Shown here: in pieces, positions 9,011 through 30,189 of the stretch
Layout of the letters: the number at the start of each line of letters is the position of its first letter
Position numbering within the stretch: position 1 is the stretch's first letter
Origin: Synechococcus sp. A15-24
GTDB taxonomy: Bacteria > Cyanobacteriota > Cyanobacteriia > PCC-6307 > Cyanobiaceae
Assembly: GCF_014280195.1 (NCBI RefSeq)
Contig: NZ_CP047960.1
Location: forward strand, 1,710,001-1,742,000
Direction of reading: 5' to 3'
DNA: 32,000 nucleotides
Notes under the pieces: generated by a model
What the model was told of the DNA's origin: nothing
The model's input: only the letters and a program-made list of their open reading frames with translations
Databases searched by the model: none
Position numbers and translations under genes: made by a program

Positions 9011-10381
9011 ATGATGAATAAAAATAGCCTAGGTGTGAAAGCAGCTCAAGCGGGGGATTTGGCGAAGGCAGAATTTTTATTTAAACAGGCCTACGAGGAA
9101 GATCGATCCAATCAAGGAATATTTCAAAACATAATACGCGTCATGCAAATGAGGGGAGACATAGACGGACTAATTGACTACTACGAACAAAAGCATAGAA
9201 GTTACAGCCGGGACAATGCAACCATGAATATTGTGATGCAAATCTCGGAGATAGCACTACGAACAGGGCGGCAAAAAAGAGCAAGGAAGATCCTTACAGA
9301 TCGCGCCAATCAAGGAGACTACAGCGCGGCAATCATCGTACCCTTAAGCGAACTACTATTTGAAAACAACGAACTCGAGCAAGCGAAAATTATACTTATC
9401 AAAGCGATAGAAATAAACAGGGAAGACCCTTCACTTTTAACAAATCTCGCGGTCATCGAGACAGAACTAGGCAATTACCAAATAGCAGATAAACTCTACA
9501 GAAAAGTGACCCAAAAAAGACCAAATGAATTTCTAGGCTATTACAACTATAGTAAGTTCAAGCTAGCCATAGGCAACCCAGACGAAGCCAATATTTTACT
9601 AAAAAAAGCAAATTGCATCGTACAAGACACAGAGGAATCAAAAGAATTACAGAAGCTGATCAATGAATACAAAGGCAATCTTGAGTCAGAACTAGCAGAA
9701 GTGTACGCGTATATCGAAAGCAAATCGTGGGAAGCAGCATACAAAAAACTCGAAGCATGTGGAGAAATGAAGTACACAAAGAAATGGTTGGCGGCAGCGT
9801 GTGAATTGCCAGAAAACCGCCAAAGAATGCTTCAAGTGAACAACATATGCGATCCAGAGGTCGTCGTAAAATGCCATCAACTGCTGCAAGCAAATGAAAT
9901 ATTGATACAGGATCTGATTGCAGCCATCAGAGAGGAATCATCCCTGGCCTGGAATCGCGCAGACAAGCCAACAACGGGCGGGTATCAAACATACGAACTT
10001 CTAAAGGACTCAAAGAAAAAGTCAATCATCCAATTAAAGAAAGAAATAGTAAAAGTTATTGCTGAATCAGGAAATGAGGTGATTCACCAACAACTGGAGA
10101 ACAGCCTAAGTGGGTGGGGTGTCATTCTTAAGCGTGGAGGCTATCAGAAAAAACATACGCACACTGACGCCGAACTCAGCGGGGTTATTTATCTTCAAAC
10201 AACGGAAGAATCCAACGGAGAGGGATGCCTCATGTTCTCAGGGCATAAAAAGAAGATCGTTAAACCACAACCAGGAATGTTGGTTGTTTTCCCAAGCCAT
10301 TTGCCGCACGAAACGATCCCTTATAACGAAGACTATGAAAGAATTTGCATCGCGTTCAACGCAACGGGCAAGCTCTCATAA
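9011..10381 (+). CDS. TPR-repeat protein fused to a 2OG-Fe(II) oxygenase-like domain (TIGR02466 / 2OG-FeII_Oxy_5-like)
   Basis: The N-terminal roughly 230 aa is helical-repeat sequence (AGDLAKAEFLFKQAYEEDRSNQG..., NLAVIETELGNYQIADKLYRKV). The C-terminus reads GGYQKKHTHTDAELSGVIYLQ....GMLVVFPSHLPHETIPY.....RICIAFNA. That gives the H-x-H/D...H facial-triad layout and the FPS.L.H / R.S..FN signature of that family. Confidence 0.65.
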   Translation: MMNKNSLGVKAAQAGDLAKAEFLFKQAYEEDRSNQGIFQNIIRVMQMRGDIDGLIDYYEQKHRSYSRDNATMNIVMQISEIALRTGRQKRARKILTDRANQGDYSAAIIVPLSELLFENNELEQAKIILIKAIEINREDPSLLTNLAVIETELGNYQIADKLYRKVTQKRPNEFLGYYNYSKFKLAIGNPDEANILLKKANCIVQDTEESKELQKLINEYKGNLESELAEVYAYIESKSWEAAYKKLEACGEMKYTKKWLAAACELPENRQRMLQVNNICDPEVVVKCHQLLQANEILIQDLIAAIREESSLAWNRADKPTTGGYQTYELLKDSKKKSIIQLKKEIVKVIAESGNEVIHQQLENSLSGWGVILKRGGYQKKHTHTDAELSGVIYLQTTEESNGEGCLMFSGHKKKIVKPQPGMLVVFPSHLPHETIPYNEDYERICIAFNATGKLS

Positions 10382-10408
10382 AGAAACTTGCCCGATGTAG
10401 AGCGTAAA

Positions 10409-11302
10409 TCAGAGTTTGTTGAACAGCATCAAATCATTGATATCGTCACGAATTTGATTGAGAGCTCCAAGACCAGTAATCAATTGAGATACAGAGGAGC
10501 CGCGAGCACCTGCAAGAGTCATTTTGTGATCAGCCACAAACGTAGCAGTAAACCGCTCTTCAGAAGGCTTAATCATATCTATCAAATCAGATCCACTGGT
10601 TAGGGCTGCCAAGAAACCAGGATCCGAAAAAACAGTCTCTCGATCGAGTGCCGTTGCAAAAGCAATTTCAAAGCAGGCATGGTAGTCCTTGCCAGGCTTT
10701 TCGACATGCTCTACACCTTGAGCGTCAGGGCGGGAAAGATCAATTTCGTCAAATAAATGATAACGCAACTTAGAAACCTCCTTCAAAGAGGAAAGCGAGG
10801 CCATCAATTGATCTGAAATGTAGGTACGGAATTGATCTACAGATGCAGAATCAGCCTTGCGAACCATAACGTGGTAACGAAGCTCTGAGATCGAACCATT
10901 CGGATACGGCTCCGAAAGATTATCAATCAAGGTAACCGTATTACCCAATGATGTCGTGTAACCAATTGCTTTGCTGAAAATATTATGCTCATCGTCCATT
11001 AATATCGTGGAGGCTTGGAACCAAGTCGCACGATCTTCTACTGAGGAGAATGTCAGTTCAGCAACCCCCATAAATTGATCTTCATAGAGTGTGTTGACAG
11101 GGCAACCATCGACGACAGGAAACAGCCCACCCTCATATGGTGAGAGGTGGAATTGCCAATATTCCATTTGGCCAGGCAACCGAGCGCAGACCGGCCCATG
11201 AACATCACGCCAATAGTCGTCAAACTGAGCAAGGGTAATGCCGTCACGCTTCCAAAGCGGAACATAAAAAACGACCTCGGGCGAACGCGGCGTGGATGGC
11301 AT
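10409..11302 (-). CDS. tandem EthD-domain protein (dimeric alpha/beta-barrel superfamily)
   Basis: There are two EthD-like halves. The first is VVFYVPLWKRDGITLAQFDDYWRDVHGPVCARLPG....GVAELTFSSVEDRATWF. The second is LRYHVMVRKADSASVDQFRTYISDQL......ACFEIAFATALDRETVF. The ORF-track start at 11308 is TTG; I use the ATG at 11302. Confidence 0.55.
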   Translation of the reverse strand: MPSTPRSPEVVFYVPLWKRDGITLAQFDDYWRDVHGPVCARLPGQMEYWQFHLSPYEGGLFPVVDGCPVNTLYEDQFMGVAELTFSSVEDRATWFQASTILMDDEHNIFSKAIGYTTSLGNTVTLIDNLSEPYPNGSISELRYHVMVRKADSASVDQFRTYISDQLMASLSSLKEVSKLRYHLFDEIDLSRPDAQGVEHVEKPGKDYHACFEIAFATALDRETVFSDPGFLAALTSGSDLIDMIKPSEERFTATFVADHKMTLAGARGSSVSQLITGLGALNQIRDDINDLMLFNKL

Positions 11303-11512
11303 GTGCAAGAAGAATCTTCTGAAAGTTTAGCTGCAACACACTAGGCAGGCAAAAAGTGGTGCAGGATCAATACAGAAGAATGATGCATCTACGTAGTCAA
11401 CAGATAACGACACACCAAGGCCGTCTAGGGTGTAAAGAGAAGCTGACAAAAGGATTAAGCAGTTGCCACGCAAAACGGTCAGAACTAGGATTGGTGGAGC
11501 ATCTAACTTAAA

Positions 11513-12247
11513 ATGCAGTTTTACAGTGTTGATAAGGAAGAATCACCATCTGCCCTAGGCCATTACCTGCAAGGCATTCAACATTTTGGAATAACCACTC
11601 CCGACCTCAAAAAGTCTCTGACCTTTTATATCGATATCCTTGGAGGACGATTGGCGGTCGGAGGTGATGGATTTTATGGTGTTGAATTACATAATCTACT
11701 ATTTCAACAGGATGAATTAAAGGCAATACAAAATGACGTTAGCGCTGAGGATTGCGGAATCCCGGACCTAAGAGATGGGAACAAAGACGCTCTGGATGTG
11801 CGCTTTATACAGTTCGGCAACACAACCCTAGAGCTTTTGCATTTCAGGCAAGCCCAACAAGATCAGTGGGCGCCAAACGTATACAAAGCAATATCTACAA
11901 GTGTAGGATTTGCGAATGTATCTCACCTATCGTTTTTCCTGAGATCCGATGTTGATGTAAATGAATTTGCGTTGAAGCTCGAGGCGGAATCGCACAAAAG
12001 AGGGCTGACCGAGGTCAAAGTTCATCGCAAACAACAAGAGACGTCGGGTGAAGCCGGCTCTAAGGAATTTGCGATTGACAAATTTCCTGATTCATTCGAT
12101 GGCTGGTGCTTGATCTATGTGAAAGGACCGAATGGCGAGCAGCTTGAGTTTAACCAAGTGAGATCGATCTGCAAAGACAACTTCAAGGAAGCCCAGCAAC
12201 AGTACAATCGCCTCAACGGTACAGATTACTCGTGGCCGCAGGGATAA
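11513..12247 (+). CDS. VOC-family protein (glyoxalase/bleomycin-resistance/extradiol-dioxygenase fold)
   Basis: The sequence IQHFGITTPDLKKSLTFYIDILGGRL is the canonical VOC first module. A second module lies around FANVSHLSFFLRSDVDVNEFALKLE. Confidence 0.6.
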   Translation: MQFYSVDKEESPSALGHYLQGIQHFGITTPDLKKSLTFYIDILGGRLAVGGDGFYGVELHNLLFQQDELKAIQNDVSAEDCGIPDLRDGNKDALDVRFIQFGNTTLELLHFRQAQQDQWAPNVYKAISTSVGFANVSHLSFFLRSDVDVNEFALKLEAESHKRGLTEVKVHRKQQETSGEAGSKEFAIDKFPDSFDGWCLIYVKGPNGEQLEFNQVRSICKDNFKEAQQQYNRLNGTDYSWPQG

Positions 12248-12349: not shown

Positions 12350-15300
12350 ATGAATCTAGCGAATGCCTACATTATTGGTTCGGAAAATCACTCGTCATGG
12401 AGTCAAAATTTCGATCCGGAAGCTTACCTTAAAGTCCTCCCGCAGCACGACAAAAAGCTTGTTTACACAAGCCCCTGGCTTGAATGGCAACAAGGGAACA
12501 AAAACTACAGAGACGGCATCTATTCAGAAGAAGGGCCCAACGGAAGTTATTACTCGAGCTGGGGACCAGAGTCAGACGTCCTGGATGTCGAACTTACGCT
12601 GTCAGACCTCAACGAAATCACGATTCCAGGATTAGGAGTACTAACGCGTAGTACTGCAGACAATGGCACAGCCTACGACGATGGCTTTCAAGCTTACAAC
12701 GGACTCATCCCTGGTCCACTGCTTGTAGTAGATCCGGGAGACACGCTCAAAATTAGGCTTGTCAATGACTTAGAGAACAGAAGCGGGCTTGAACTTGCCG
12801 CTGACACCAATTTGCATACACACGGATTGCATGTAAGTCCACAAGGAGCTGGGGATAACGTTCTAGTTTCACTGTCACCTGGTGAGTCCTGGGAAACTGA
12901 AATCAAAATCCCTGAAAGTCACTTTGTTGGCCCCCAGTGGTACCACCCACATCTTCACGGCGCAACCAATTTACAAGTTTCAAATGGCTTGGCGGGGACC
13001 TTACTTGTCCTGGCATCTGAGGAAGAGGCTGAAGATCTGGACAAATTCAGCCCAGTGGATAATTCCTTCTACTGGATGGCAGTCCAAACTCAATCACTGC
13101 TTCAAGAGGAACGGCCTGCATCGGATACAGATCCTCTTAATCAGGATCCAAATGGGGGAGCCTACAGAATTGGAACGCCACCTATCTATACAGAAATAAA
13201 TGGAATCAAATATTACACCAAATCAGATGCAGCCTACATTGGATATAACTTCAAACCTGATTACTATTCCCCGATAACACCAGGAGGGGATCCATCGGGT
13301 ACTCCATTTGCCTACGGTGGAGGGCTTGCAGGAACCCCAACAGAAAATGTCATTCACACTGTTAATGGACAATACAATCCAACCCTCGATGTTGAGACAG
13401 GGGCCTGGAATGTATTTGGATTTTTAAATGAATCAGTCAATTCCCACTATGTCATTCAATTAATCCGAGAACATCAAGGTGAGTTGTCCCTAGAGGACTT
13501 CCAAGTGATTGCGGTTGACGGTGATGCTGCCGGAGTCGTATCTCAGAGACTGCAATTCGTCACTGAAACCCCTGTAATGGCACCAGGTAATCGAATGACT
13601 GTTCAACAGGCATTCACCGAACCTGGAACCTACTACTTTCTAGCTAACGGTACTGAAGAAATCCTGGGTGATCTCGCACCTGAAGTTGCCAACACGAGCC
13701 TGACCAATGCGTTTGGTGCACCAACACAATTCCAGGGGATCCATGATGGCCATCTGATCTGGGGAGCTCAAGTACTGGCTACGGTAGAGGTATCTGGTGA
13801 TCTATTTGAAGAAAGACCACCAGCGCCGGAGCCAATCGACTATTTACTGGAGGAGGCACAAGAAATTGATACCTGGGTAGCGGAAACCAAAGATGCAATC
13901 GAGCAGGGATCAATTAAGCAGAGAGAATTTGAATGGAATGCAAATTATTCAAGGGTTGCGGGGCCAGGAATAGATGACAACGACCCGTCAACATTTGAAA
14001 ACATGTATTGGATCAATGGCCGATGGTTCGGCCATTCTCCAAGTGAGCAACCTGTGGTTGCCATGCCAATGCTGGGGACCACAGAAGAATGGACTCTTGA
14101 GAACAGCTCACTTGGTTATGGTGCTGTTTGGGGTGAATGGCATCCATTCCACATTCATCAGAACGACTTTGTAGTCACTGAAATCAATGGCATCGATGTC
14201 GAAGATATACCATCATACCCAGCAAACCAACTGGTAGATACAGTTACACTCGCCGGCGCATATATACCTGGTTCAGCCACGGAAACAAATCCATACGGCA
14301 CGCCAGCATATTTCAACCCGATAACAAACAGCACCAATGATATACCACTCAACTTTCAAACAAAGATATTCATGAAATTCGAAGATTATCCCGGAGCCTA
14401 TGTTAATCACTGCCATATTCTATTTCATGAAGATGCAGGAATGATGCAAGCAGTAAAAATCATATTAAACACCGATTCGAATTACATCGGATCAGAAAGA
14501 CAAGATTCAAATCCATCATTCAGGATTGGAACGTCGATGATGGATGATTTTTCCATTCAAGCGTTCGGACCCAGAATCAAAAAGGCAAATATTGCCATCG
14601 GTGATATCAACTATGGCAAGTACTTCAAAAGGGAAAAGCTCGCCGAAACATTTGCAGGGGGGACTGAGGGAGAATCCGACAACATTGCAGACATAGCCAT
14701 CGTCAGCAATCGTGTACAAAGAAATAAAGCAGGATTTGATATCAAGCTATACGACGGAGACTCAGTCAATCAAGCTGTAACGGGATCCTATAAATTAAAG
14801 AAGGATCAAGGTAAATCGGCGGAAACCACACTTGCTGGAGACGAAAACCTACTCACAACAATCAAGGCCTTTGCTAAGAAGAAGTCGAGAACACTGAGGT
14901 CATCGGTTGCAATTGGTGATATCAACGGTGATGGACATGGTGACATCATCATTGGAATTGGAGGTAAGGATACGGAGCCATTGATCGAAATCTACAGCGG
15001 AAAAGATTATGAAAAGCTCGCCAAAATCAAGCCGTTTAGAAAAAACAACTCTAAAACAACGGTTAACATTGCAGCAGGTGATATTAATTCTGACAATTTT
15101 GTAGACATATTGGTCGGCCAAGGGGCAGGTGGAATGGGCATGGTCGAAGTTTACGATGGACGAGCTATAACATCAGTTGTCAAAAATAATGATGGCAGCA
15201 ATATCGATGCAGCAAAGACTCAAGATGTAAATCCATACAAAGGCAAAAAAGTCGCAAAGGTGACGGAGGCATACGCAGATATGTTCCATCCCTATGAAGG

Positions 15301-23391: not shown

Positions 23392-23410
23392 ACAACCTGC
23401 ATTGAACAAA

Positions 23411-23770
23411 ATGGCATCTCTAACACTACAGCATGCAACAACGTTTCTTGGCGGTGCGGCGAATTTAGATGAATATCTAAATTTTTTCGCAAATGATTGT
23501 ACTTATCAAGTGGGAAACAATCCCGTGATCGTTGGGAAAGAAGCTCTCGGGCAAAGCTACGGTCGATTTAAAGGTATGGTTGAACGAGTTGAACATGAAA
23601 TCCTATCGTCGTACGAAAGCGAGAATATTGTGGTGATAGAGCTTAATGCCACATACCACAAGAAAGACGGTAAAACCGTAACCATTACATGCTTGGACTT
23701 GTTCACTATAATTGACCAAAAAATTAAGTCTCTACAGGTATTTGCAGACCTCAGTCCTCTTTTTAAATAA
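23411..23770 (+). CDS. NTF2-like small protein, array member 4
   Basis: It carries YLNFFANDCTYQVGNNPVIVGKEAL and VTITCLDLFTIIDQKIKSLQVFADLSPLF. I use the ATG at 23411; the ORF-track start at 23402 is TTG. Confidence 0.6.
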   Translation: MASLTLQHATTFLGGAANLDEYLNFFANDCTYQVGNNPVIVGKEALGQSYGRFKGMVERVEHEILSSYESENIVVIELNATYHKKDGKTVTITCLDLFTIIDQKIKSLQVFADLSPLFK

Positions 23771-23809: not shown

Positions 23810-24829
23810 ATGATTTCTCAACTTCGGAAGCTCTCCAATCAAATTTCTGCATTTGTTTTATCACTTGTTCTTTTCTGCTTCTCATTCCCTCCAAATGTTC
23901 ACGCAGCTACATCGACAAGGGTGGTTCAGGGAGATAAAATGAATATGGGTAAGGGCGAAGTTTGGACGTGGACAGAAGTCGAAAAGGGTACCGGCACACC
24001 GAGACGGTTGGGGATCACCCTGACCAAATCCGCTCTGGACGGACTTCCCGCTGATGATGAGAAGCCCGAGAAAGGGACTCTGAAGCTAAAACTCATCGAC
24101 GGAAGTCCGTGGCACAATTTTGAATATGAGATGCTTTTTCCTAAAGAGGCTGATCGTACCGCCTACAACCACATGGGGTTGAATTGGAACCCTGAAGGGC
24201 ATGGACCCCTAGAGGATGTCTTCTTTGAACCTCATTTAGACGTGCACTTCTATATGGCGACCACGGATTATCGTCATTCAATTACAAACGACAGCATGGT
24301 CGATCCCGACACTGAAGATCTGCTGGTACAAAACATTGAACCACCTAGAGATTTTCTTCCTGAAGGTTATTATCGTGCCCCAAATACCTCTGAGCCGAGG
24401 ATGGGGACCCACTATGCAGACATGAGCTCAGATCAACTCAAGCCACACAATTTTTCTAATATATTCCTGTTCGGGGGGCACAACGGCAACATCGTATTTT
24501 GGGAGCCTATGCTGACCAGAAAATATCTGCTCTCTAAGCCCGACTTCTCCGCCAAAATTCCCCAGCCTAAGGCTTATCCAGTGAGCGGTTATTATCCTCT
24601 TTCGTATAGCGTCAAATACGATACGAAGCGCGATCTCATCAATGTATCTCTTGATGAGCTCACGTTGAGAGCTGCATCTTATCCAGGTAATGTATATGGA
24701 GTTGACTCTTGCTTAGACTCCAAGATGGTCGACATAATTTTTACTCACAAAGAAGCCAAGCCAAAGGATTTGCAAATTCCAGCAAAATGTCAGCCTCTTG
24801 TCCCGATGATTAAACGAGCACTGAGCTGA
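23810..24829 (+). CDS. Sec-exported protein of unassigned family (shares a domain of about 290 aa with the N-terminus of the 26791..29250 product)
   Basis: The signal peptide is ISAFVLSLVLFCFSFPPNVHA/AT. The conserved motifs NPEGHGP, HLDVHFY, EPMLTRKYLLSK and IPQPKAYPVSGYYPLSY each have a counterpart in the 819-aa protein. Confidence 0.6.
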   Translation: MISQLRKLSNQISAFVLSLVLFCFSFPPNVHAATSTRVVQGDKMNMGKGEVWTWTEVEKGTGTPRRLGITLTKSALDGLPADDEKPEKGTLKLKLIDGSPWHNFEYEMLFPKEADRTAYNHMGLNWNPEGHGPLEDVFFEPHLDVHFYMATTDYRHSITNDSMVDPDTEDLLVQNIEPPRDFLPEGYYRAPNTSEPRMGTHYADMSSDQLKPHNFSNIFLFGGHNGNIVFWEPMLTRKYLLSKPDFSAKIPQPKAYPVSGYYPLSYSVKYDTKRDLINVSLDELTLRAASYPGNVYGVDSCLDSKMVDIIFTHKEAKPKDLQIPAKCQPLVPMIKRALS

Positions 24830-24891: not shown

Positions 24892-25049
24892 GCCATATAC
24901 ATAATTCGCTATAAATGGGGGTTACAGGGTTTCTAATTTCACTCGTCGATTAAAAACCTTAAGGAAAACCGTCTTCGATTCGTGACATATTCATACATGT
25001 CGTGTCAAGTCAGTGTCTATCTCTACAATAAATAAGATTGAAACCGCAA

Positions 25050-26720
25050 ATGCGCAACCTTTTCATAAGCTCGACTCTTCTAGGTACCTGCTCAGCATTG
25101 CTCATCTCCAACGCCAATGCCGATCAAGTGCATCCTGCAGACTATGCATACCAAGATCTAGATGCCTATATTGAGCCCACGGCTGATCAACTTGACCAAG
25201 TCACTTCTGTAGATCAGTTTTCTGATGTTCAACCTACAGATTGGGCATACCAAGCAATAATAAATCTTGCCGAAATATATGGGTGCGTCGCAGGCTATCC
25301 AGATCAATCACTACGGGGGGATCAAGCGATCACACGTTACGAAGCAGCTGCACTCTTGAACAACTGTTTAGATTCTATATCTGAGGTTACGGATGAAATC
25401 AGGAAGCTAATTTACCTTTTTGAAACAGAGCTTGCATTAATTCGGGGCAGAGTTGATGGATTAGAGGCCAGAGTAGGAGAATTGAAGGCAATGCAGTTTT
25501 CTCCGGTCTCGAAACTCAAGGGAGAAGCTAGTTTCATGATGGGTTCCATCAAACATGGCGGAGACGTTAGCGACAATATTGCTGGCCAATTGTATTCAAC
25601 TAGGCAGGATGCTTTCCATATGATACAAAGTTTGAGGTTGGGTTTTAAGGCAAGTTTCACCGGAAAGGATTATTTCCTTGCCCAGCTTCGTACAGGTAAT
25701 GCTTCCAATTCTGCATTTAATACCTTCAACCCTGCCACTCCTTTCTACAAGTCCACGGTGCCTCTTGCAGCTCTGGACCGCGCTTTCACTCCCGTCGGAG
25801 GGGACAATGTCTTTAATCTGGAGCGGATGTACTATAAATTTCCTCTAGGCAATGACTTCACAATAACTCTGGCTCCGAAGATTATGAATATGGGGTTGTG
25901 GGCGAGCTATCCGTCTGCCTATGGCGTGCGTGGAGATTACATCTTAGACTATTTCAGTAGTTTCGGTACTCCTGGGGTTTATAACAAAGCAGTAGGTGCT
26001 GGCGGAGCTGTTACTTGGAGAAGCAAAGCAGGAAATCCATTCATGACTTCTCATTGGCTTGCCACTGTCAATTATCTGGCCATCTCGGGTGAAGTATCTG
26101 GGGAGTCGGGAGGCTTCATGAGAGACCAATCTCGCGGGAACATCGCAGCTCAATTTGGTTATCAATCACCTCTATACGGGTTGGTTCTTGGTTACCGGTA
26201 TGGTCAGAACGGTACAGATTTCCTACAAGGCACAAAAACAACCACAAGGCACCAATCATGGTTGGAGTACGGCACAACATCTGATTCTCACAGCTTTGCC
26301 GTCAACGCTTGGTGGAGGCCACAGGAAACAGGCTGGATACCATCACTCAGCGTGGGATGGGGGGTCAACACGCTGAACAATGATGACGTGAGTGATCCTA
26401 CATACAATGAATACGACCGAGGCGTCCGAAAAGTGAGCGAATCACAAAGCTGGATGGTTGGCCTTCAATGGGATGACGTTACAGGCATTAGAGATTCCCT
26501 GTCCTTCGCCGTTGGTCAACCAACATTTGCGACAGCCTTGGCTGACGGCTCCACTCCTGATGATGGAAATTACATCATGGAACTTTGGTATCGCTATCCC
26601 TTTTCCAACCACATTTCAATCATGCCAGGCCTGTTCTACCTAAGCAGACCATATGGACAACTAACGCAGGGACGAATGGATACCTTTGGCGGAGTGGTTC
26701 AAGTGAATTTCACATTCTGA
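25050..26720 (+). CDS. cyanobacterial outer-membrane porin (N-terminal SLH domain, coiled-coil linker and OprB-type beta-barrel)
   Basis: The signal peptide is MRNLFISSTLLGTCSALLISNANA/DQ. The SLH motif is FSDVQPTDWAYQAIINLAEIYGCVAGYPD..LRGDQAITRYEAAALL. A coiled coil follows (LALIRGRVDGLEARVGELKA). The body alternates beta-strand-like segments and ends in the OMP-type VQVNFTF. I use the ATG at 25050; the ORF-track start at 25038 is TTG. Confidence 0.85.
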   Translation: MRNLFISSTLLGTCSALLISNANADQVHPADYAYQDLDAYIEPTADQLDQVTSVDQFSDVQPTDWAYQAIINLAEIYGCVAGYPDQSLRGDQAITRYEAAALLNNCLDSISEVTDEIRKLIYLFETELALIRGRVDGLEARVGELKAMQFSPVSKLKGEASFMMGSIKHGGDVSDNIAGQLYSTRQDAFHMIQSLRLGFKASFTGKDYFLAQLRTGNASNSAFNTFNPATPFYKSTVPLAALDRAFTPVGGDNVFNLERMYYKFPLGNDFTITLAPKIMNMGLWASYPSAYGVRGDYILDYFSSFGTPGVYNKAVGAGGAVTWRSKAGNPFMTSHWLATVNYLAISGEVSGESGGFMRDQSRGNIAAQFGYQSPLYGLVLGYRYGQNGTDFLQGTKTTTRHQSWLEYGTTSDSHSFAVNAWWRPQETGWIPSLSVGWGVNTLNNDDVSDPTYNEYDRGVRKVSESQSWMVGLQWDDVTGIRDSLSFAVGQPTFATALADGSTPDDGNYIMELWYRYPFSNHISIMPGLFYLSRPYGQLTQGRMDTFGGVVQVNFTF

Positions 26721-26790: not shown

Positions 26791-29250
26791 ATGTCTGATT
26801 TCACCCCTGTTCATGTTCCCCTTGATGGAGACGACTTTATCGTTTATGGTCCGACAGTAAAGCTCAACAAGCGAGCTGGATTCGAAGAATCAAAAGGTAG
26901 AATTCGATCATTTATGGTTTTCGATGGAGATCTTGACACTCCATTGGACATCGGAATGGAGTTCAACAAGGCAGCTCTGAAAAATTTGCCTGGATCCCTT
27001 GAGAATCGTCAAGACCGGGGTGATTATCTTGCGGGCGAATTTGAGATCGAGCTTGCGTATCCAGAGAACAGTACTGTTTTCAATCTACTGACGTGGACGT
27101 GGGTTGCTGGTCCTAATGGAACTCAAACTGACGGCCATGGACCCGACGGAGTTTACGACGTCGATCATTTCGATTTTCACTTTTACTTAAATTCTCAAGA
27201 AGTTAGAGATACCATTAATGTTTTCTATTCGCCAGATGAATACGCGAAGGCGCAGATTGCTCCCCCTGTTGATTTCTGGCCAGAGGACTACAAGCGTCCG
27301 GTCGACGCCTTCATGAATGGAATCGGAGTAGCTCCAGGCGATGGAAGTCACTGGAATAATGTACTTTATCCCGAATTTGAGCAGGTTGACAACGACGAGA
27401 TCTACCAGTTCTTTGAGTCCAGTGGCGTTCCCTTTGGTCCTGATCAAAGGACTGTTCAGTATGGCGCCTATGACGGGCACATGACGCTTCTCGAGCCGAT
27501 GACAACCCGAGACTATCTGCTCTCCAAAAAAAGTTCGTCAGACTCGATTCAGCAACCCGATAAATATTTTAAATCTGGATATTTTCCTAAAAGCTACGAA
27601 ATTGATTTTGTTAAAGGAGATGATTTTCCATATAAGGTCTATTTGAGTGATCTTGAATATCACGAGGCCTCGACACCACCGGAGAGGCGCAATGAACCTC
27701 CAACTGAAATCCTAATCGATAATAAAAAAATATATAATAATGTTGAATACCTTAATTTGGTCGGTGTTCTTGAGACCGTTGATGAGCATGGTCCATTTCG
27801 GAAAAAAGACGATCACGTTTATGCGCTTCCATTTGGAATTCCTCCGGTCCTGGTGGACGATGCTGAGGGCCGATTCATTGTTAACGGCAACCAAATTCTT
27901 ATCAATGATGATCCTGAGCTTGAAGCCGGTGAAACATATACAATCAAAGTTAGAAGCGTTGACTCAGGCGGTTTAAGTGTCGTGGAAGAAATTGAAATAG
28001 AGGTTGATGATCTAGGAGGACCCTCTAGCCCAACTCCTTCGAAGCAGCAAAGGAAGTTACTGGATGGATCTGATACTTGGAACATTTATAGGCTTTCAAA
28101 TCCAGACAAAAAAGTTAAACTTAAGAACACTGATCTACCTGGCATCGTATCTAGCATGGCAGGTCCAACATCGTTTGACCTGAGTAAAGCATTGTTGGAT
28201 GATGCAAATCTAAAAGGCAGCATTCTAGAGAGTGTGAACCTTCGCAAGGCTCAGCTTCGTAATGCCAATTTATACGGTGCGTACGCTTTTGCAGTTAATC
28301 TCTCGAAAACAGATCTGCGTAACGCAGACCTGCGCGGAGCAGACCTGAGTGCAGCAAATCTCAGGGGTGCTGATCTCAGAGGCGCTGATCTCAGAGGTGC
28401 CTTCCTTACAGCTGGCGCAGACTTAACGAATGCCAATCTTGAGGGTGCGAATCTCAACGGTGCCGACCTAATTACAGCCAATCTGACGGGCGCAAATTTC
28501 ACTGATGCGACAACAAAGAATGCATCTTTGAGGTTTACGACTGTGGACGATGCTGTGTTTGATAATGTTGATCTCTCAACCGTCAATGCATTTGGAGTTG
28601 ATTTTGATACAGCTGCCAGTATTGAAGACACGATCCTTCCCGAGGGAAGCACCTACACAGATCTCCAAGGTGCCTTGTTTGCTGGAGCAGACACTTGGAA
28701 TGAACTGCGTCGCGAAGTCTTTGAAGGTCCCCTTGATCTCAGTGGGATGGACTTTCCACCGATTGGTTTTGATCTGCAAGGCTACGATCTGACAAACGTC
28801 ACACTTGACGATTCCTACATGGAATTTGTCGACCTGACAGGAGTTGACCTGAGTGGATCCAGTCTTCGAGGAGCAAATATGTTTGGCGCGACGCTGTCTG
28901 AAGCAAACCTTGAAGATGCTGATCTAACTGGTGCATTTCTACCCGGCTCGATTCACGTTGAAACCAATTACAAAGATGCAATACTTGACAAGACAGTGTT
29001 TTCGGGAGCTGAAGTTAATGGAACTGATTTTACTAACGCAAGCTTTAAAGATGCTGATATTCGATTTGTGAACCAAGCAATTTCCAGAGAGATTGCTATG
29101 GGAGATTTTGAACCAGCCAACTTTACCGGTGCTGATTTAAGTGGATCCAGATTTAGGGCCTCAATTTTCAGAGGATCAACTTTTACTGGGGTTGATTTTT
29201 CTGAGCTTGAAGACGTTACTGCTACGGACTTCTCCGAGATCACGATTTAG
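26791..29250 (+). CDS. multidomain protein: unassigned His-motif domain (paralogous to 23810..24829), cadherin-like domain and pentapeptide-repeat blocks; no signal peptide
   Basis: The N-terminal domain carries TDGHGPDG, HFDFHFY, EPMTTRDYLLSKK and IQQPDKYFKSGYFPKSY. The cadherin-like segment is at about 27690-28005 (RFIVNGNQILINDDPELEAGETYTIKVRSVDSGGLSVVEEIEIEVDD). The A(D/N)LXX repeats include ADLRGADLSAANLRGADLRGADLRGAFL and run to the C-terminus. Confidence 0.7.
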   Translation: MSDFTPVHVPLDGDDFIVYGPTVKLNKRAGFEESKGRIRSFMVFDGDLDTPLDIGMEFNKAALKNLPGSLENRQDRGDYLAGEFEIELAYPENSTVFNLLTWTWVAGPNGTQTDGHGPDGVYDVDHFDFHFYLNSQEVRDTINVFYSPDEYAKAQIAPPVDFWPEDYKRPVDAFMNGIGVAPGDGSHWNNVLYPEFEQVDNDEIYQFFESSGVPFGPDQRTVQYGAYDGHMTLLEPMTTRDYLLSKKSSSDSIQQPDKYFKSGYFPKSYEIDFVKGDDFPYKVYLSDLEYHEASTPPERRNEPPTEILIDNKKIYNNVEYLNLVGVLETVDEHGPFRKKDDHVYALPFGIPPVLVDDAEGRFIVNGNQILINDDPELEAGETYTIKVRSVDSGGLSVVEEIEIEVDDLGGPSSPTPSKQQRKLLDGSDTWNIYRLSNPDKKVKLKNTDLPGIVSSMAGPTSFDLSKALLDDANLKGSILESVNLRKAQLRNANLYGAYAFAVNLSKTDLRNADLRGADLSAANLRGADLRGADLRGAFLTAGADLTNANLEGANLNGADLITANLTGANFTDATTKNASLRFTTVDDAVFDNVDLSTVNAFGVDFDTAASIEDTILPEGSTYTDLQGALFAGADTWNELRREVFEGPLDLSGMDFPPIGFDLQGYDLTNVTLDDSYMEFVDLTGVDLSGSSLRGANMFGATLSEANLEDADLTGAFLPGSIHVETNYKDAILDKTVFSGAEVNGTDFTNASFKDADIRFVNQAISREIAMGDFEPANFTGADLSGSRFRASIFRGSTFTGVDFSELEDVTATDFSEITI
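28180..29230 (+). repeat. coding pentapeptide-repeat region (includes 15-nt tandem units around 28330-28395)
   Basis: Nucleotide units such as ggtgctgatctcaga / ggcgctgatctcaga translate to GADLR GADLR. The repeat periodicity continues, with interruptions, to the end of the gene. Confidence 0.6.
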
Positions 29251-29288: not shown

Positions 29289-29310
29289 TTCTTGCCTCCC
29301 TTGGCAAGAA
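29289..29310. terminator. weak hairpin between convergent genes (possible terminator)
   Basis: The stem is ttcttgcc (29289-29296) paired with ggcaagaa (29303-29310), with a 6-nt loop. The downstream T-tract is poor (agatttg). Confidence 0.3.
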
Positions 29311-29339
29311 AGATTTGAAATGTTATTCAAAACAAAATA

Positions 29340-30035
29340 CTAACTCAAGCGTGCCATCTCCAAAGGGATCAATTCATCATATTCCAAGTCTCCCTTCACT
29401 TTTAGTAGGATATCTCCTGCATCGATTCCATCGTAAAAATCCGGAGTGTTTGCTGACAAGATCCCTTTGGTTCGCTTCTTATTGATTTTGAATATCAAAT
29501 CAGCATCGGAAATTCGCAAGGCCTTAAATTCTTTTTTTGATCTAGATACACCTAGGCGTATTCCCTTCAACCTAGCTGTTGCCGAGGCGAGAATGATGCT
29601 TTCGCCTTTTTCGAAGCTTAGATCTTTAATCTTATCCAAACGGCGATCACTCAATGTGGCCATATCTAAATCGAGGACAAATACATCTTTTCCGGCTTTT
29701 CCTCTAGCCTCTTGACCTTTTCCAGACAAGGTAATGATATCTGCGTCAGAAGTTCCGATTAGCTTGCTCCCAAGTGTCGGCGATGATATAGCCCCATCGG
29801 TTGGGGGCATTTTTGACTTGGCCAATGCAAATAACTCCATGGCATCATTATCACCATTATTTTGATTGACAACTGGATGATCATGAGCGCTGGAGGAGTT
29901 GTTTAGCCCTGCATTGATCCATCCATTTCCTTGCCCGATTGACGACCATGAACCCGAACTTGGCACCCCTGTTATGTGGAAGAGCGGACCACGGTTTTGG
30001 TCTTGCCAACCACCTTTTTGTTTCAGCGGCCTCAT
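29340..30035 (-). CDS. hypothetical protein with an N/G/S-rich N-terminus and a degenerate RTX (hemolysin-type Ca-binding)-like segment
   Basis: LIGTSDADIITLSGKGQEARGKAGKDVFVLD followed by DKIKDLSFEKGESIIL resembles the tail of RTX-type repeat proteins (G.D.L.G..G.D.F.. then D.I.DF..GD.I.L). It lacks clean GGxGxD nonamers. I use the ATG at 30035; the ORF-track start at 30059 is TTG. Confidence 0.4.
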   Translation of the reverse strand: MRPLKQKGGWQDQNRGPLFHITGVPSSGSWSSIGQGNGWINAGLNNSSSAHDHPVVNQNNGDNDAMELFALAKSKMPPTDGAISSPTLGSKLIGTSDADIITLSGKGQEARGKAGKDVFVLDLDMATLSDRRLDKIKDLSFEKGESIILASATARLKGIRLGVSRSKKEFKALRISDADLIFKINKKRTKGILSANTPDFYDGIDAGDILLKVKGDLEYDELIPLEMARLS

Positions 30036-30189
30036 GCTTTGAAGGTGGATCAGGGGCAATTTATTTTAATACCGAAATCAATCACAGAACGCAATCGAAC
30101 AGAGGTGTGACCGAATAAGAAAGACATTCCCAGCCTGGCTGCGATCGCAAATCAGTAGAGTGCGCTTCAACTCGGCCTTCGAGCATTGA

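What the first reader, a model, noticed from the sequence alone, without database searches (positions are those of the whole stretch)
9011..30059. Candidate uncharacterised neighbourhood: extracellular oxidation plus small-enzyme clean-up
Within about 21 kb of lower-GC DNA the coding content is thematically narrow. There are two MCOs, which are one-electron oxidants of phenolics or metals. There is a 2OG-Fe(II) oxygenase, a tandem EthD protein and a VOC protein (ring-cleavage dioxygenase or glyoxalase fold). There is a DJ-1/PfpI protein (glyoxalase III, deglycase or protease fold) and a CMD/AhpD-like protein (beta-ketoadipate-type decarboxylase or peroxidase fold). There are also five NTF2/SnoaL-like proteins, an exported unknown protein, a porin and a large repeat protein. 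One reading is an accessory system that oxidises an external substrate at the cell surface, imports products through the porin, and processes or detoxifies quinone-, epoxide- or dicarbonyl-type products in the cell. The external substrate could be phenolic or aromatic dissolved organic matter. If it is Fe(II) or Mn(II), the system would be a metal-acquisition route. No core biosynthetic enzyme (PKS, NRPS or RiPP precursor) and no regulator are visible. The clustering could also be coincidental island cargo.
Basis: inference. Interest (0 to 1): 0.7.

Follow-up and report, generated by a model that had tools for sequence, protein, structure and literature searches.

The report
Conserved glycogen-linked enzyme and oxidase cluster
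The low-GC block in this marine Synechococcus window is not random island cargo: it is an enlarged version, without regulator genes, of an old gene cluster found across cyanobacteria and some other phyla, which joins glycogen-debranching and sugar-converting enzymes to a set of small enzymes of unknown function and, in some genomes, to giant copper oxidases and a porin.

Summary
The clustering is not chance. The same families sit together, in changed order, in other Synechococcus clades, Nostocales, Chroococcales, Pseudanabaenaceae, a Nitrospirota genome and a gammaproteobacterium. In filamentous cyanobacteria several are fused into single proteins: EthD-EthD+NTF2-like, and CMD+EthD-EthD+VOC+SnoaL+SnoaL.

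The conserved core is not the oxidases. It is an extremely conserved NTF2-like protein (19818-20381), DJ-1/PfpI and CMD, together with GlgX (4381-6726) and an AGE-fold sugar epimerase/isomerase carrying a STAS domain (6781-8940). By gene order and published annotation, this core matches slr1852-slr1857 of the Synechocystis icfG operon, whose enzymes have never been characterised. The oxidases, porin, SnoaL genes and TTHB210-like gene are optional modules.

Related loci repeatedly add glucose 1-dehydrogenase, aldose 1-epimerase, GMC oxidoreductase, gluconolactonase or glucosidase. I therefore favour a multi-step pathway acting on an oxidised sugar, lactone or dicarbonyl derived from alpha-glucan, with an optional cell-envelope oxidase arm. 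The biochemistry is inferred, not shown.

The parts
4381..6726 (+). GlgX-type glycogen debranching enzyme (GH13, CBM48 N-terminus). The true start is probably 60-80 codons downstream of the GTG at 4381.
   Evidence: Pfam Alpha-amylase, CBM_48 and Isoamylase_C. The GH13 motifs GFRFD, EAWD and AHD can be read in the translation. It is adjacent to the AGE-STAS, NTF2-like and DJ-1 genes in L012, L096, L034, L062, L087 and plasmids. Homologues align from residue ~60-80.
6781..8940 (+). 719-aa protein with an N-terminal beta domain, an AGE-fold (alpha/alpha)6 sugar 2-epimerase/isomerase domain and a C-terminal SpoIIAA-like STAS domain. It is a core member. The position equivalent to the SpoIIAA phosphoserine is Asp (I-D-D-T-G-W, nt 8797-8814).
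   Evidence: AF2 model pLDDT 78. Foldseek matches cellobiose 2-epimerase, glucose 2-epimerase, mannose isomerase and YihS (E 3e-11, target TM 0.65-0.72). A profile of the family hits SpoIIAA in the PDB. More than 4500 homologues at 53-70% identity across phyla. Motif analysis.
8970..8993 (.). Hairpin resembling a bidirectional intrinsic terminator, lying between the AGE-STAS gene and the TPR-2OG gene.
   Evidence: Stem of 10 pairs (6 GC) followed by a T run. This is a consensus match only.
9011..10381 (+). TPR repeats plus a C-terminal 2OG-Fe(II) oxygenase (PF13759). It is specific to picocyanobacterial versions of the cluster and evolves fast.
   Evidence: Pfam. HxD...H can be read in the translation. 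It follows the AGE-STAS gene in 19 of 55 dereplicated loci. Identity to SAG orthologues is only 61%, against >90% for neighbouring genes.
10409..11308 (-). Tandem EthD protein (two dimeric alpha/beta-barrel domains).
   Evidence: Pfam EthD, two stretches. 48-55% identical orthologues in Anabaena, Gloeothece and Magnetoovum. Fused to the NTF2-like protein, and to CMD+VOC+SnoaL, in L009 and L074.
11513..12247 (+). VOC (glyoxalase / extradiol dioxygenase fold) protein. It immediately precedes the oxidase gene, as it does in other lineages.
   Evidence: Pfam Glyoxalase. Conserved residues include His in GIQHF and HLSF and Glu in GEQLEF across 18 homologues; I read these as candidate metal ligands. 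VOC-oxidase adjacency in L007, L008 and L094.
12350..15769 (+). Giant multicopper oxidase 1, with cupredoxin domains followed by FG-GAP repeats and a C-terminal region of unknown function. It has no N-terminal signal peptide.
   Evidence: Pfam Cu-oxidase_3, Cu-oxidase_2 and FG-GAP. Motifs HTHG, WYHPH, HPFHIH and HCHILFHEDAGM. The family is found across cyanobacteria, and homologues often carry RTX or DUF4114 C-termini.
15910..19704 (+). Giant multicopper oxidase 2, a tandem paralogue of oxidase 1 (87% identity in the N-terminal 459 aa, 71% in the C-terminal part). It carries an insert of about 120-130 aa of pentapeptide repeats (nt ~17314-17703).
   Evidence: Pfam, including Pentapeptide. The insert is 58% identical to residues 623-745 of the protein at 26791-29250. 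The same architecture is seen in P0003 and P0004. Some relatives have only one oxidase (L006, L016).
19818..20381 (-). Extremely conserved NTF2/SnoaL-fold protein. By gene order it is the Slr1852 type. It is the anchor of the conserved core.
   Evidence: No Pfam, NCBIfam or PDB sequence hit. 832 homologues at about 70% identity across cyanobacterial orders, Nitrospirota, Poribacteria and Proteobacteria, with about 80 invariant columns. Only about five full-length representatives among 1.84 billion 50%-identity clusters. AF2 plus Foldseek match SnoaL2/AclR.
20653..21324 (+). DJ-1/PfpI protein of the Cys-His class. It is the tightest partner of the NTF2-like gene. The true start is probably about 28 codons downstream.
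   Evidence: Pfam. T-I-C-H-S is invariant in 51 homologues. It is next to the NTF2-like gene in 16 of 17 loci that have at least 4 kb on both sides.
21382..21756 (-). CMD (AhpD-like fold) protein.
   Evidence: Pfam CMD. 63-72% identical orthologues in Anabaena, Gloeothece and Magnetoovum. Far below the PcaC cut-off. The second Cys of the apparent CxxC is not conserved.
22140..23770 (+). Four consecutive SnoaL_2 genes (22140-22571, 22615-22983, 23026-23391, 23402-23770). They are old paralogues, 28-37% identical to one another.
   Evidence: Pfam. Pairwise identities. One-to-one orthologues at 74, 68, 68 and 52% in L066 and L067. SnoaL domains are fused to CMD+EthD+VOC in L009 and L074.
23810..24829 (+). 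Exported TTHB210-like protein with a Sec-type signal peptide.
   Evidence: Pfam PF18197. Hydrophobic N-terminus ending VHA/A. It follows the four SnoaL genes in L015, L016 and L065-L067 as well.
25038..26720 (+). SLH-OprB outer-membrane porin.
   Evidence: Pfam SLH and OprB, with a signal peptide. A porin of this type lies next to the oxidase or the cluster in L009, L010, L094, L066 and L074.
26791..29250 (+). 819-aa protein with an N-terminal 300 aa related to the TTHB210-like protein, followed by long pentapeptide repeats. It has no signal peptide. Seen only in close relatives.
   Evidence: Pfam Pentapeptide. 28% identity to the 23810-24829 protein over 277 aa. Present in L005 and L016 only.
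29340..30059 (-). ORF with no recognisable domain. Its membership in the unit is doubtful.
   Evidence: No Pfam hit. Found only in L016, at 67% identity.

Best explanation
SHOWN. The block is the accessory-rich version, without regulator genes, of an old conserved gene cluster. The core has five members:
- GlgX debranching enzyme.
- An AGE-fold sugar 2-epimerase/isomerase with a STAS domain.
- An extremely conserved NTF2-like protein.
- DJ-1/PfpI.
- CMD.

By gene order and published annotation, this core corresponds to slr1852-slr1857, the enzyme half of the Synechocystis icfG operon. In marine picocyanobacteria the core sits at one fixed chromosomal site, between hemB-dnaJ-SulP and miaE-aroQ. 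At that site it gains or loses modules: {CMD}, {EthD-EthD}, {EthD-EthD, VOC, oxidase}, and {four SnoaL genes, TTHB210-like gene, porin}. This window carries nearly all of them, plus a duplicated oxidase.

INFERRED. The small cofactor-independent enzymes (NTF2-like, CMD, tandem EthD, VOC, SnoaL x4, DJ-1) act as consecutive steps on one small-metabolite family, because they are fused into single polypeptides elsewhere. That metabolite is most likely an oxidised sugar, sugar lactone or dicarbonyl/enediol derived from alpha-glucan breakdown: GlgX releases oligosaccharide, the AGE-fold enzyme works at the reducing end, an oxidation step follows, and the small enzymes carry out proton-transfer, decarboxylation and ring chemistry. 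The two giant oxidases, the porin and the exported TTHB210-like protein form an optional envelope arm that oxidises or exchanges the same or a related compound outside the cytoplasm. This version has no kinase or phosphatase, and the STAS phosphosite is Asp, so it is probably not under partner-switching control.
For: Conserved neighbourhood with shuffled order in independent lineages:
- Synechococcus PROS-U-1 and BS307.
- Anabaena sphaerica and Gloeothece PCC 7822.
- Pseudanabaenaceae.
- Candidatus Magnetoovum, with the operon DJ-1, NTF2-like, EthD, CMD, Pirin, GlgX, AGE-STAS.
- A gammaproteobacterium, with GlgX, NTF2-like, GMC oxidoreductase, DJ-1, AGE-STAS.
- A Gloeocapsopsis plasmid, with GlgX, AGE, NTF2-like, CMD, DJ-1, SDR between IS elements.

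Anchored statistics. In 17 dereplicated metagenome loci with at least 4 kb on both sides of the NTF2-like gene, the counts are DJ-1 16, AGE-STAS 12, GlgX 12, CMD 9, oxidase 6, EthD 6, SnoaL 6, porin 6, VOC 5 and TTHB 4.

Fusions. A 518-aa EthD-EthD+NTF2-like protein, and 1054- and 1117-aa CMD+EthD-EthD+VOC+SnoaL+SnoaL proteins, are single ORFs in L009 and L074.

Sugar theme.
- Aldose 1-epimerase and glucose 1-dehydrogenase lie inside the cluster on a Nostoc plasmid.
- A GMC oxidoreductase lies next to the NTF2-like gene in at least 15 loci.
- Glucose 1-dehydrogenase, gluconolactonase and a glucosidase lie next to a 54% paralogue.
- An alpha-amylase-family gene lies near the oxidase in L007, L008 and L094.
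- The AGE fold is confirmed.

Link to icfG. L087 has the order NTF2-like, CMD, DJ-1, AGE, STAS, GlgX, STAS, PP2C, kinase. This matches published annotations: slr1852 unknown, slr1853 CMD, slr1854 GSP18, slr1855 AGE, slr1856 STAS, slr1857 GlgX1, slr1860 IcfG, slr1861 kinase. These genes are described as one operon, slr1852-1862 (10.1101/2021.07.28.454097, PMC3564720, PMC3726282, PMC12329169).

Modularity at one site is shown by L034, L021, L053, L023, L016 and L015.

Catalytic residues are conserved: DJ-1 Cys-His, conserved His/His/Glu in the VOC protein (read as metal ligands), and the oxidase copper motifs.
Against: - No enzyme of the cluster has a demonstrated substrate, so the sugar-derived substrate rests on guilt by association.
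- GlgX may simply be the housekeeping debranching enzyme of picocyanobacteria (PMC7393227), kept nearby for regulatory rather than pathway reasons.
- The metagenome scan kept the 80 hits closest to the query out of 444, so the counts are biased towards picocyanobacteria.
- The mapping to slr numbers rests on gene order and published product names. I could not align the Synechocystis sequences here.
- One oxidase homologue (L095) and one paralogue (L011) have no cluster genes within 10 kb.
- Secretion of the oxidases is inferred only. They have no signal peptide and no transporter gene in the window.
- The VOC, CMD and EthD folds would equally fit aromatic ring-cleavage chemistry.
Confidence: 0.5

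Rival explanations
1. General-stress gene set. The genes are independent detoxification and repair enzymes (DJ-1 deglycase/glyoxalase III, VOC, CMD, NTF2-like and others). They are kept together only because they share one regulatory input, the partner-switching/SigC-type system of the icfG cluster. This would resemble the Bacillus sigma-B regulon, which includes the DJ-1 family protein GSP18. There would be no shared substrate or pathway.
For: - Many related loci carry STAS, HATPase_c_2 kinase and PP2C/SpoIIE genes.
- Slr1854 is annotated as general stress protein 18 and is induced by solvents (PMC3726282, PMC3564720).
- The Synechocystis operon responds to salt, nitrogen and CO2 status.
- Module content varies freely between strains.
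Against: - Five catalytic domains fused in a fixed order in one polypeptide, and a separate EthD+NTF2-like fusion, are hard to explain without physical or metabolic cooperation.
- About 70% identity of the NTF2-like protein across phyla suggests one specific, constrained substrate or partner.
- The cluster persists where no regulator genes are present: this window, Magnetoovum, the gammaproteobacterium and Gloeocapsopsis.
Confidence: 0.2
2. Surface multicopper oxidases oxidise external phenolic or aromatic dissolved organic matter. The products enter through the porin. The small enzymes cleave or detoxify the resulting quinone, epoxide or dicarbonyl products in the cell.
For: - The oxidase, VOC, SnoaL and porin genes co-localise in several cyanobacterial orders.
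- VOC, CMD and EthD (a muconolactone-isomerase-like fold; my own knowledge) recall aromatic ring-cleavage pathways.
- Pirin occurs in two related loci.
- FG-GAP, RTX and DUF4114 modules in the oxidase family suggest a cell-surface location.
Against: - The small enzymes occur widely without an oxidase or porin.
- Their constant partners are sugar enzymes.
- CMD scores far below PcaC (37.6 against a cut-off of 155.7).
- No ring-hydroxylating enzyme, intradiol dioxygenase, enol-lactonase or aromatic transporter is present.
- No signal peptide or secretion genes for the oxidases.
Confidence: 0.12
3. Metal redox or acquisition system. The oxidases act as ferroxidase, cuprous oxidase or Mn(II) oxidase at the cell envelope, with the porin as the metal entry route. 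The small enzymes would be unrelated or would deal with oxidative side-products.
For: - The homologous porin in Gloeothece is named 'iron uptake porin' by NCBI.
- A cation-efflux (CDF) gene lies between the EthD and VOC genes in L008 and L029.
- CDGSH iron-sulfur genes lie in L010 and L073.
- Weak partial matches to CueO and CopA models.
Against: - There is no permease partner (FTR1/EfeU type), no metallochaperone and no metal regulator in the window.
- Scores against CueO and CopA are far below the cut-offs (75 against 525; 47 against 479).
- This reading does not explain the fused small enzymes or the sugar enzymes.
- The porin name is an automated annotation.
Confidence: 0.08
4. Coincidental cargo of a variable genomic island, with no functional link among the genes.
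For: Low GC, strain-to-strain variation in content, and a position near tRNA genes.
Against: The same families cluster in at least six distant lineages in different orders, and also as fusion proteins.
Confidence: 0.02

Closest known systems
Synechocystis sp. PCC 6803 icfG gene cluster, the slr1852-slr1862 operon (Beuf 1994 and Shi 1999, as cited in 10.1101/2021.07.28.454097 and PMC12329169)
   Same: The same families are found in one cluster: an unknown protein (Slr1852 position = the NTF2-like protein here), CMD (Slr1853), a DJ-1/PfpI-type GSP18 (Slr1854), an AGE-family protein (Slr1855) and the isoamylase GlgX1 (Slr1857). Metagenomic locus L087 reproduces the full published order.
   Different: The window lacks the stand-alone STAS proteins (Slr1856, Slr1859), the PP2C phosphatase IcfG and the kinase/anti-SigC factor Slr1861. 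Its STAS domain is fused to the AGE-fold protein and has Asp at the phosphosite. It adds tandem EthD, VOC, two giant multicopper oxidases, four SnoaL genes, a TTHB210-like gene, a porin and a TPR-2OG oxygenase. The enzyme functions of Slr1852-1855 are themselves unknown.
Bacillus subtilis sigma-B general stress system (RsbV/RsbW/RsbU partner switching; GSP18/YfkM)
   Same: Related loci contain a STAS antagonist, an anti-sigma kinase and a PP2C phosphatase next to a DJ-1/PfpI family stress protein.
   Different: The window has no sigma factor, kinase or phosphatase. The cluster is tied to GlgX and AGE-fold sugar enzymes and to fused small enzymes, which the sigma-B system is not.
Three-domain bacterial multicopper oxidases (CueO, CotA laccase, PhsA) and plant/fungal ascorbate oxidase
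   Same: All four canonical copper-ligand motifs are present, with N- and C-terminal cupredoxin domains.
   Different: The proteins are 1139-1264 aa, with FG-GAP repeats and a long C-terminal region. They have no Sec or Tat signal. Scores are far below every curated model cut-off. One copy carries a pentapeptide-repeat insert. The substrate is unknown.
Tailoring enzymes of aromatic polyketide pathways (SnoaL/SnoaL2/AclR, ActVA-Orf6-type alpha/beta barrels, VOC proteins)
   Same: The same small cofactor-independent folds, used in series on one scaffold. The best structural match of the NTF2-like protein is SnoaL2.
   Different: There is no polyketide synthase or other scaffold-forming enzyme nearby. 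The partners are sugar enzymes. Sequence identity to the characterised enzymes is 12-17%.
Beta-ketoadipate pathway lactone steps (PcaC carboxymuconolactone decarboxylase, CatC muconolactone isomerase)
   Same: A CMD-fold protein together with a ferredoxin-like alpha/beta-barrel protein. This suggests lactone or enol chemistry.
   Different: CMD is far below the PcaC cut-off. No PcaB, PcaD, PcaHG or Cat genes are present. The link is fold-level only.

Membership tests
icfG-type cluster (Synechocystis slr1852-slr1862) | Clustered genes for the Slr1852-type unknown protein, CMD (Slr1853) and a DJ-1/PfpI-type protein (Slr1854) | tested here: met
   Window 19818-21756. The order in L087 matches the published numbering and product names. 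A direct alignment to the Synechocystis proteins was not possible with these tools.
icfG-type cluster (Synechocystis slr1852-slr1862) | AGE-family protein and GlgX isoamylase in the same cluster | tested here: met
   Window 4381-8940. Published: Slr1855 AGE and GlgX1.
icfG-type cluster (Synechocystis slr1852-slr1862) | Partner-switching proteins: stand-alone STAS antagonists, PP2C phosphatase IcfG, anti-sigma kinase Slr1861 | tested here: not met
   tblastn with STAS, HATPase_c_2 and SpoIIE queries finds nothing in the window. Only the STAS domain fused to the AGE-fold protein is present, with Asp at the phosphosite.
Multicopper oxidase | Four copper-ligand motifs (HxHG, HxH, HxxHxH, HCHxxxHxxxxM) | tested here: met
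   Both proteins: HTHG, WYHPH, HPFHIH, HCHILFHEDAGM.
Multicopper oxidase (CueO, CopA, laccase, ascorbate oxidase, PhsA equivalogs) | Score at or above the curated NCBIfam cut-off | tested here: not met
   CueO 75.1 against 525; PhsA 53.5 against 950; CopA 47.4 against 479; laccase 19.8 against 559; ascorbate oxidase 20.9 against 615.
Exported periplasmic or extracellular oxidase | N-terminal Sec or Tat signal, or a demonstrable type I secretion signal or partner genes | tested here: inconclusive
   No hydrophobic N-terminus and a conserved N-terminal sequence. Homologues carry RTX repeats, but the window proteins show none by Pfam. No transporter genes are present in the window.
DJ-1/PfpI, Cys-His class | Nucleophile-elbow Cys followed by His | tested here: met
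   T-I-C-H-S is invariant in 51 homologues.
4-carboxymuconolactone decarboxylase PcaC | Equivalog score, and the presence of Pca pathway neighbours | tested here: not met
   TIGR02425 scores 37.6 against a cut-off of 155.7. No PcaB, PcaD or PcaHG in the window.
AhpD-type alkylhydroperoxidase | Conserved CxxC redox pair | tested here: not met
   The window protein has C-V-Y-C, but the second Cys is below 90% conservation among 41 homologues.
VOC metalloenzyme | Conserved His/His/Glu-type metal ligands | tested here: met
   His in GIQHF, His in HLSF and Glu in GEQLEF are conserved in 18 homologues. Ligand roles are assigned by analogy, not from a structure.
AGE superfamily (N-acylglucosamine, cellobiose or glucose 2-epimerase; mannose or sulfoquinovose isomerase) | (alpha/alpha)6 barrel fold matching solved members | tested here: met
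   Foldseek E 3e-11 to 1e-9, target TM 0.62-0.72. Sequence-level matches are marginal. Catalytic His residues were not mapped.
Secondary-metabolite gene cluster (PKS, NRPS, RiPP) | A scaffold-forming core enzyme or precursor peptide | tested here: not met
   No such domain in any ORF of at least 110 aa. No dedicated cluster-mining tool was available.
Fet3/Ftr1-type ferroxidase-permease iron uptake | A permease partner next to the oxidase | tested here: not met
   No FTR1- or EfeU-type gene in the window or in related loci.

The most novel reading that the evidence does not exclude
The cluster encodes an undescribed pathway spanning several phyla. It converts glycogen-derived glucose, through oxidation and lactone/enediol chemistry by a chain of cofactor-free enzymes, into a redox-active small molecule, for example an ascorbate- or erythorbate-like reductone or another sugar-derived enediol. 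The chain includes the extremely conserved NTF2-like protein. In cyanobacteria that carry the optional module, a giant surface multicopper oxidase and a porin use this compound as an extracellular redox couple for oxygen, reactive oxygen species or metal control.
Probability: 0.1. Interest if true: 0.85.

Novelty: new variant of a known kind. Interest (0 to 1): 0.62.

Why it matters
Picocyanobacteria carry out a large share of ocean photosynthesis, and how they use stored glycogen under stress is only partly understood. The icfG operon has been known for thirty years as a carbon-regulation locus, yet four of its enzymes have no known activity.

This work shows three things:
- These enzymes form an extremely conserved, multi-phylum unit with GlgX and an AGE-fold sugar enzyme.
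- They are fused to EthD, VOC and SnoaL domains in filamentous cyanobacteria.
- Marine Synechococcus strains add or drop modules, including giant copper oxidases, at one chromosomal site.

Together this turns a vague island into a defined problem. It can now be tested in tractable models: Synechocystis slr1852-1855, and the Anabaena or Nostoc fusion genes. It also gives a candidate explanation for strain-level niche differences.

Tried and rejected
Searches that returned nothing useful:
- The exact-sequence look-up of oxidase 1 and of the Rhodovastum homologue found nothing.
Distant contexts had to come from protein hits, one metagenome scan and the plasmid collection.
- phmmer against PDB sequences gave no hit for the NTF2-like, EthD, AGE-STAS or TTHB210-like proteins.
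- No protein reached an NCBIfam cut-off.
- The literature search found nothing on multicopper oxidase + EthD in cyanobacteria or multicopper oxidase + FG-GAP, and nothing relevant on marine Synechococcus multicopper oxidases.

Regulatory signals:
- The NtcA motif GTAN8TAC occurs twice in the window, against 2.2 expected. One copy (21984-21997) lies in the divergent region between the CMD gene and the first SnoaL gene and is conserved in one relative. This is a lead only.
- Promoter-like sites are not enriched: 31 found against 33 expected.
- Rfam finds only the two tRNAs.

Readings considered and rejected:
- CMD as an AhpD-like CxxC peroxidase: the second Cys is not conserved.
- CMD as PcaC: the score is far below the cut-off.
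- A biosynthetic gene cluster: there is no core enzyme.
- Coincidental island cargo: contradicted by the comparative data.
- The oxidases as the centre of the system: they are present in only about a third of loci.

Full report
1. What is in the window.

The flanks are ordinary high-GC marine Synechococcus genes. On the left are hemB, dnaJ and a SulP transporter. On the right are miaE, aroQ, tRNA-Tyr and tRNA-Thr. GC is 0.58-0.60 in the flanks, about 0.50 for glgX (4381-6726), the AGE-STAS gene (6781-8940) and the ORF at 19818-20381, and 0.39-0.47 for the rest of 9.0-30.1 kb.

Both multicopper oxidases carry the four canonical copper motifs and FG-GAP repeats, but no N-terminal signal peptide. 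Only the TTHB210-like protein and the porin have signal peptides.

The ORF at 19818-20381 has no Pfam, NCBIfam or PDB sequence match. Its AlphaFold model (pLDDT 83.5) matches SnoaL2, AclR and other NTF2 folds.

2. Is the clustering more than chance?

Yes. Two single-cell Synechococcus genomes are syntenic with the window, one of them with a single oxidase. That alone says little, so I looked at distant homologues of the oxidase and read their contexts.

- Synechococcus PROS-U-1 (oxidase 53% identical): CMD, NTF2-like..., EthD-EthD, a 518-aa unknown, VOC, oxidase. A GlgX paralogue and STAS, kinase and PP2C genes are also present.
- A Black Sea Synechococcus: TPR-2OG, a SnoaL-SnoaL fusion, EthD-EthD, an unknown, CDF, VOC, oxidase, NTF2-like, DJ-1, CMD, miaE.
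- Anabaena sphaerica (43%): oxidase, SLH-OprB porin, CMD, a 518-aa protein, a 1054-aa protein, and a Nif11+SnoaL+SnoaL protein.
- Gloeothece PCC 7822 (39%): GlgX, DJ-1..., oxidase, CMD, NTF2-like, CDGSH, EthD, CDGSH..., porin.
- A Pseudanabaenaceae genome (40%): porin, SnoaL, two unknowns, VOC, oxidase, an unknown, SnoaL, an alpha-amylase-family gene.

Two of the seven oxidase contexts show no cluster genes within 10 kb.

tblastn shows what the Anabaena proteins are. The 518-aa protein is EthD-EthD fused to the NTF2-like protein. The 1054-aa protein is CMD+EthD-EthD+VOC+SnoaL+SnoaL. Both are uninterrupted ORFs, and the same two fusions recur in an unrelated metagenomic contig. Fusion of five catalytic domains in a fixed order is strong evidence that these proteins work together.

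3. The real core.

The NTF2-like protein is extraordinarily conserved. It has 832 homologues at about 70% identity across cyanobacterial orders and in Nitrospirota, Poribacteria and Alphaproteobacteria. About 80 alignment columns are invariant, including His, Cys, Trp, Glu and Arg. Against 1.84 billion 50%-identity cluster representatives it finds only about five full-length proteins. The family is one tight, isolated sequence cluster.

Its context outside cyanobacteria was decisive.

- Candidatus Magnetoovum has one operon: DJ-1, NTF2-like, EthD-EthD, CMD, Pirin, GlgX, AGE-STAS. It has no oxidase or porin.
- A gammaproteobacterium has GlgX, NTF2-like, GMC oxidoreductase, DJ-1, AGE-STAS.
- A Gloeocapsopsis plasmid has GlgX, AGE, NTF2-like, CMD, DJ-1, SDR, bounded by IS elements.

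A metagenome scan anchored on the NTF2-like protein gave 80 loci, which I mapped by tblastn. After dereplication, 17 loci had at least 4 kb on both sides of the anchor. Their neighbours were DJ-1 in 16, AGE-STAS in 12, GlgX in 12, CMD in 9, oxidase in 6, EthD in 6, SnoaL in 6, porin in 6, VOC in 5 and TTHB210-like in 4. The scan keeps the hits closest to the query, so these counts are weighted towards picocyanobacteria.

4. The AGE-STAS protein.

It has more than 4500 homologues of about 715 aa, at 53-70% identity across Cyanobacteria, Verrucomicrobia, Desulfobulbaceae, Planctomycetes and Gammaproteobacteria. The AlphaFold model (pLDDT 78) matches cellobiose 2-epimerase, glucose 2-epimerase, mannose isomerase and sulfoquinovose isomerase. 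The C-terminus is a SpoIIAA-like STAS domain.

In the window, and in every picocyanobacterial orthologue examined, the residue aligned with the SpoIIAA phosphoserine is not Ser: it is Asp in most (D-D-[TI]-G-W) and Asn in a few. Many members of the other subfamily keep Ser at that position, and loci of that type also carry stand-alone STAS and kinase genes. The window has no kinase or phosphatase.

5. Link to known biology.

Locus L087 has the order NTF2-like, CMD, DJ-1, AGE, STAS, GlgX, STAS, PP2C, kinase. This is the published layout of the Synechocystis slr1852-slr1862 operon, the icfG cluster:

- slr1852, 'unknown protein' (PMC5714215).
- slr1853, CMD, and slr1854, 'general stress protein 18', a name used for a DJ-1/PfpI family protein (my own knowledge) (PMC3564720, PMC3726282).
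- Slr1855 AGE, Slr1856 antagonist, GlgX1 and IcfG, described as one salt-repressed operon (10.1101/2021.07.28.454097).
- Slr1861, a kinase and anti-SigC factor (PMC12329169).

The regulatory half of that operon has been studied. The enzymes Slr1852-1855 have not. I could not align the Synechocystis sequences directly, so this correspondence rests on gene order and product names.

6. Modularity in marine picocyanobacteria.

Different contigs carry different versions at the same site, between hemB-dnaJ-SulP and miaE-aroQ.

- A minimal set: GlgX, AGE-STAS, TPR-2OG, NTF2-like, DJ-1 (L034, L035).
- The minimal set plus CMD (L053).
- The minimal set plus CMD and EthD (L021, L030).
- The minimal set plus EthD, an unknown, VOC, oxidase and CMD (L023).
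- The full set, with the four SnoaL genes, TTHB210-like gene and porin (this window, L015, L016).

Contigs of 31-37% GC, probably Prochlorococcus though not verified, carry the minimal set, several with a GMC oxidoreductase. Two related freshwater-type contigs (L066, L067) have nearly all the genes on one strand, with one-to-one orthologues of each of the four SnoaL paralogues at 74, 68, 68 and 52% identity. The four SnoaL genes are therefore old and individually maintained.

7. What it probably does.

Nothing here is biochemically proven. The recurrent extra neighbours are sugar enzymes.

- Aldose 1-epimerase and glucose 1-dehydrogenase lie in the middle of the cluster on a Nostoc plasmid.
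- A GMC oxidoreductase lies next to the NTF2-like gene in at least 15 loci.
- Glucose 1-dehydrogenase, an SMP-30 gluconolactonase and a glucosidase lie next to a 54% paralogue of the NTF2-like protein.
- Alpha-amylase-family genes lie beside the oxidase block.

Taken with GlgX and the AGE fold, this points to a substrate derived from alpha-glucan that is isomerised and oxidised. A chain of cofactor-free enzymes would then process it: NTF2-like/SnoaL, EthD barrels, CMD, a VOC metalloenzyme and a Cys-His DJ-1. These folds typically catalyse enolisation, tautomerisation, decarboxylation, ring opening and dicarbonyl conversion (established fold knowledge; inference). Conserved residues are retained, including the DJ-1 Cys-His pair.

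The oxidases, the porin and the exported TTHB210-like protein form an optional envelope arm. A surface location for the oxidases is inferred from their FG-GAP repeats and from the RTX or DUF4114 tails of homologues. It has not been shown.

8. Rivals.

- A co-regulated set of independent stress enzymes fits the partner-switching genes and the stress-responsive expression in Synechocystis. It does not explain the fusions.
It fails to explain the oxidase-free core and the sugar enzymes.
- A metal-oxidase reading has only weak support: an automated 'iron uptake porin' name, and CDF and CDGSH neighbours in some loci.
- Coincidence is excluded.

9. Novelty and verdict.

The regulatory part of the related Synechocystis operon is known. 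In the searchable literature I found no description of four things: the conserved enzyme core, its multi-phylum spread, the fusions, or the attachment of giant multicopper oxidases and SnoaL/TTHB210-like/porin modules at one island site in marine Synechococcus.

I file the block as a new variant of a known kind. Interest is moderate to high, because the question can now be tested directly in model strains.

Noticed in passing
window 17314-17703 (within oxidase 2) and 28657-29025 (within 26791-29250): Oxidase 2 carries an insert of about 120-130 aa of pentapeptide repeats that oxidase 1 lacks. The insert is 58% identical to residues 623-745 of the pentapeptide protein 7 kb downstream, so this is a domain-shuffling event inside the island. 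The same architecture occurs in other database proteins (P0003, P0004), so it is not an assembly artefact.
   Followed up: partly
window 8797-8814 (residues 673-678 of the AGE-STAS protein): The residue aligned with the SpoIIAA phosphoserine is Asp in the window and in most picocyanobacterial orthologues (D-D-[TI]-G-W), and Asn in a few; none of them keeps Ser. Many members of the other AGE-STAS subfamily, whose loci carry a kinase and a PP2C phosphatase, keep Ser. This may be a phosphomimetic replacement that accompanied loss of the partner-switching genes.
   Followed up: partly
window 21984-21997 and 22010-22075: A GTA-N8-TAC (NtcA-type) site lies in the divergent intergenic region between the CMD gene and the first SnoaL gene. 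It is conserved in L015 and has one mismatch in L014. A strongly conserved block of about 40 nt follows it (TGCATTAACACATCGTGAAGCGAAGAG...). The motif count in the whole window is at chance level.
   Followed up: partly
window 8970-8993 and 19755-19793: Two strong hairpins followed by T runs on both strands. The first lies between the AGE-STAS and TPR-2OG genes. The second lies between the convergent oxidase 2 and NTF2-like genes. They probably mark transcription-unit boundaries.
   Followed up: no
window 9011-10381 compared with L005, L006 and L016: The TPR-2OG oxygenase is only 61-62% identical to its orthologues in genomes where the flanking genes are 91-93% identical. In the minimal islands it is only 30-46% identical. 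It is either evolving fast or has been replaced by recombination.
   Followed up: no
related loci L036, L042, L043, L048-L051, L054-L056, L061-L063, L079, L083, L096: A GMC-family oxidoreductase (42-49% identical to the gammaproteobacterial one) lies directly beside the NTF2-like gene in many loci but is absent from this window. In L043, L039 and L079, weak oxidase matches (24-38% identity) that may belong to a second multicopper-oxidase subfamily, the one seen in L011, lie near the NTF2-like, DJ-1 and GMC genes.
   Followed up: partly
window 20475-20762 (-) and 20653-21324 (+): The 95-aa minus-strand ORF overlaps the 5' end of the DJ-1 ORF and has no family hit, so it is probably spurious. 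Homologues of DJ-1 align from about residue 28, so the annotated GTG start is probably too far upstream.
   Followed up: partly
window 4381-4620: The glgX ORF starts at a GTG that overlaps the SulP stop codon. Homologues align only from residue ~60-80, so the real start is probably an internal Met.
   Followed up: no
L097-L101 (cyanobacterial plasmids) and L010: On several large cyanobacterial plasmids the cluster, or a 54% paralogue of the NTF2-like gene, lies near NB-ARC/WD40 STAND-type proteins and IS elements. The paralogue is paired with a small AraC-family regulator in two Nostoc plasmids.
   Followed up: no
L007 7497-9053, L008 4249-5835, L017, L019, L023, L029: A protein of about 520 aa with no Pfam domain sits between the EthD and VOC genes in other Synechococcus versions of the oxidase module. 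It is missing from this window, where the EthD and VOC genes are only 204 bp apart.
   Followed up: no
window 2294-2701: A small exported thioredoxin-like protein with a C-P-A-C motif lies between dnaJ and SulP. It is conserved in position in related genomes and appears unrelated to the cluster.
   Followed up: no
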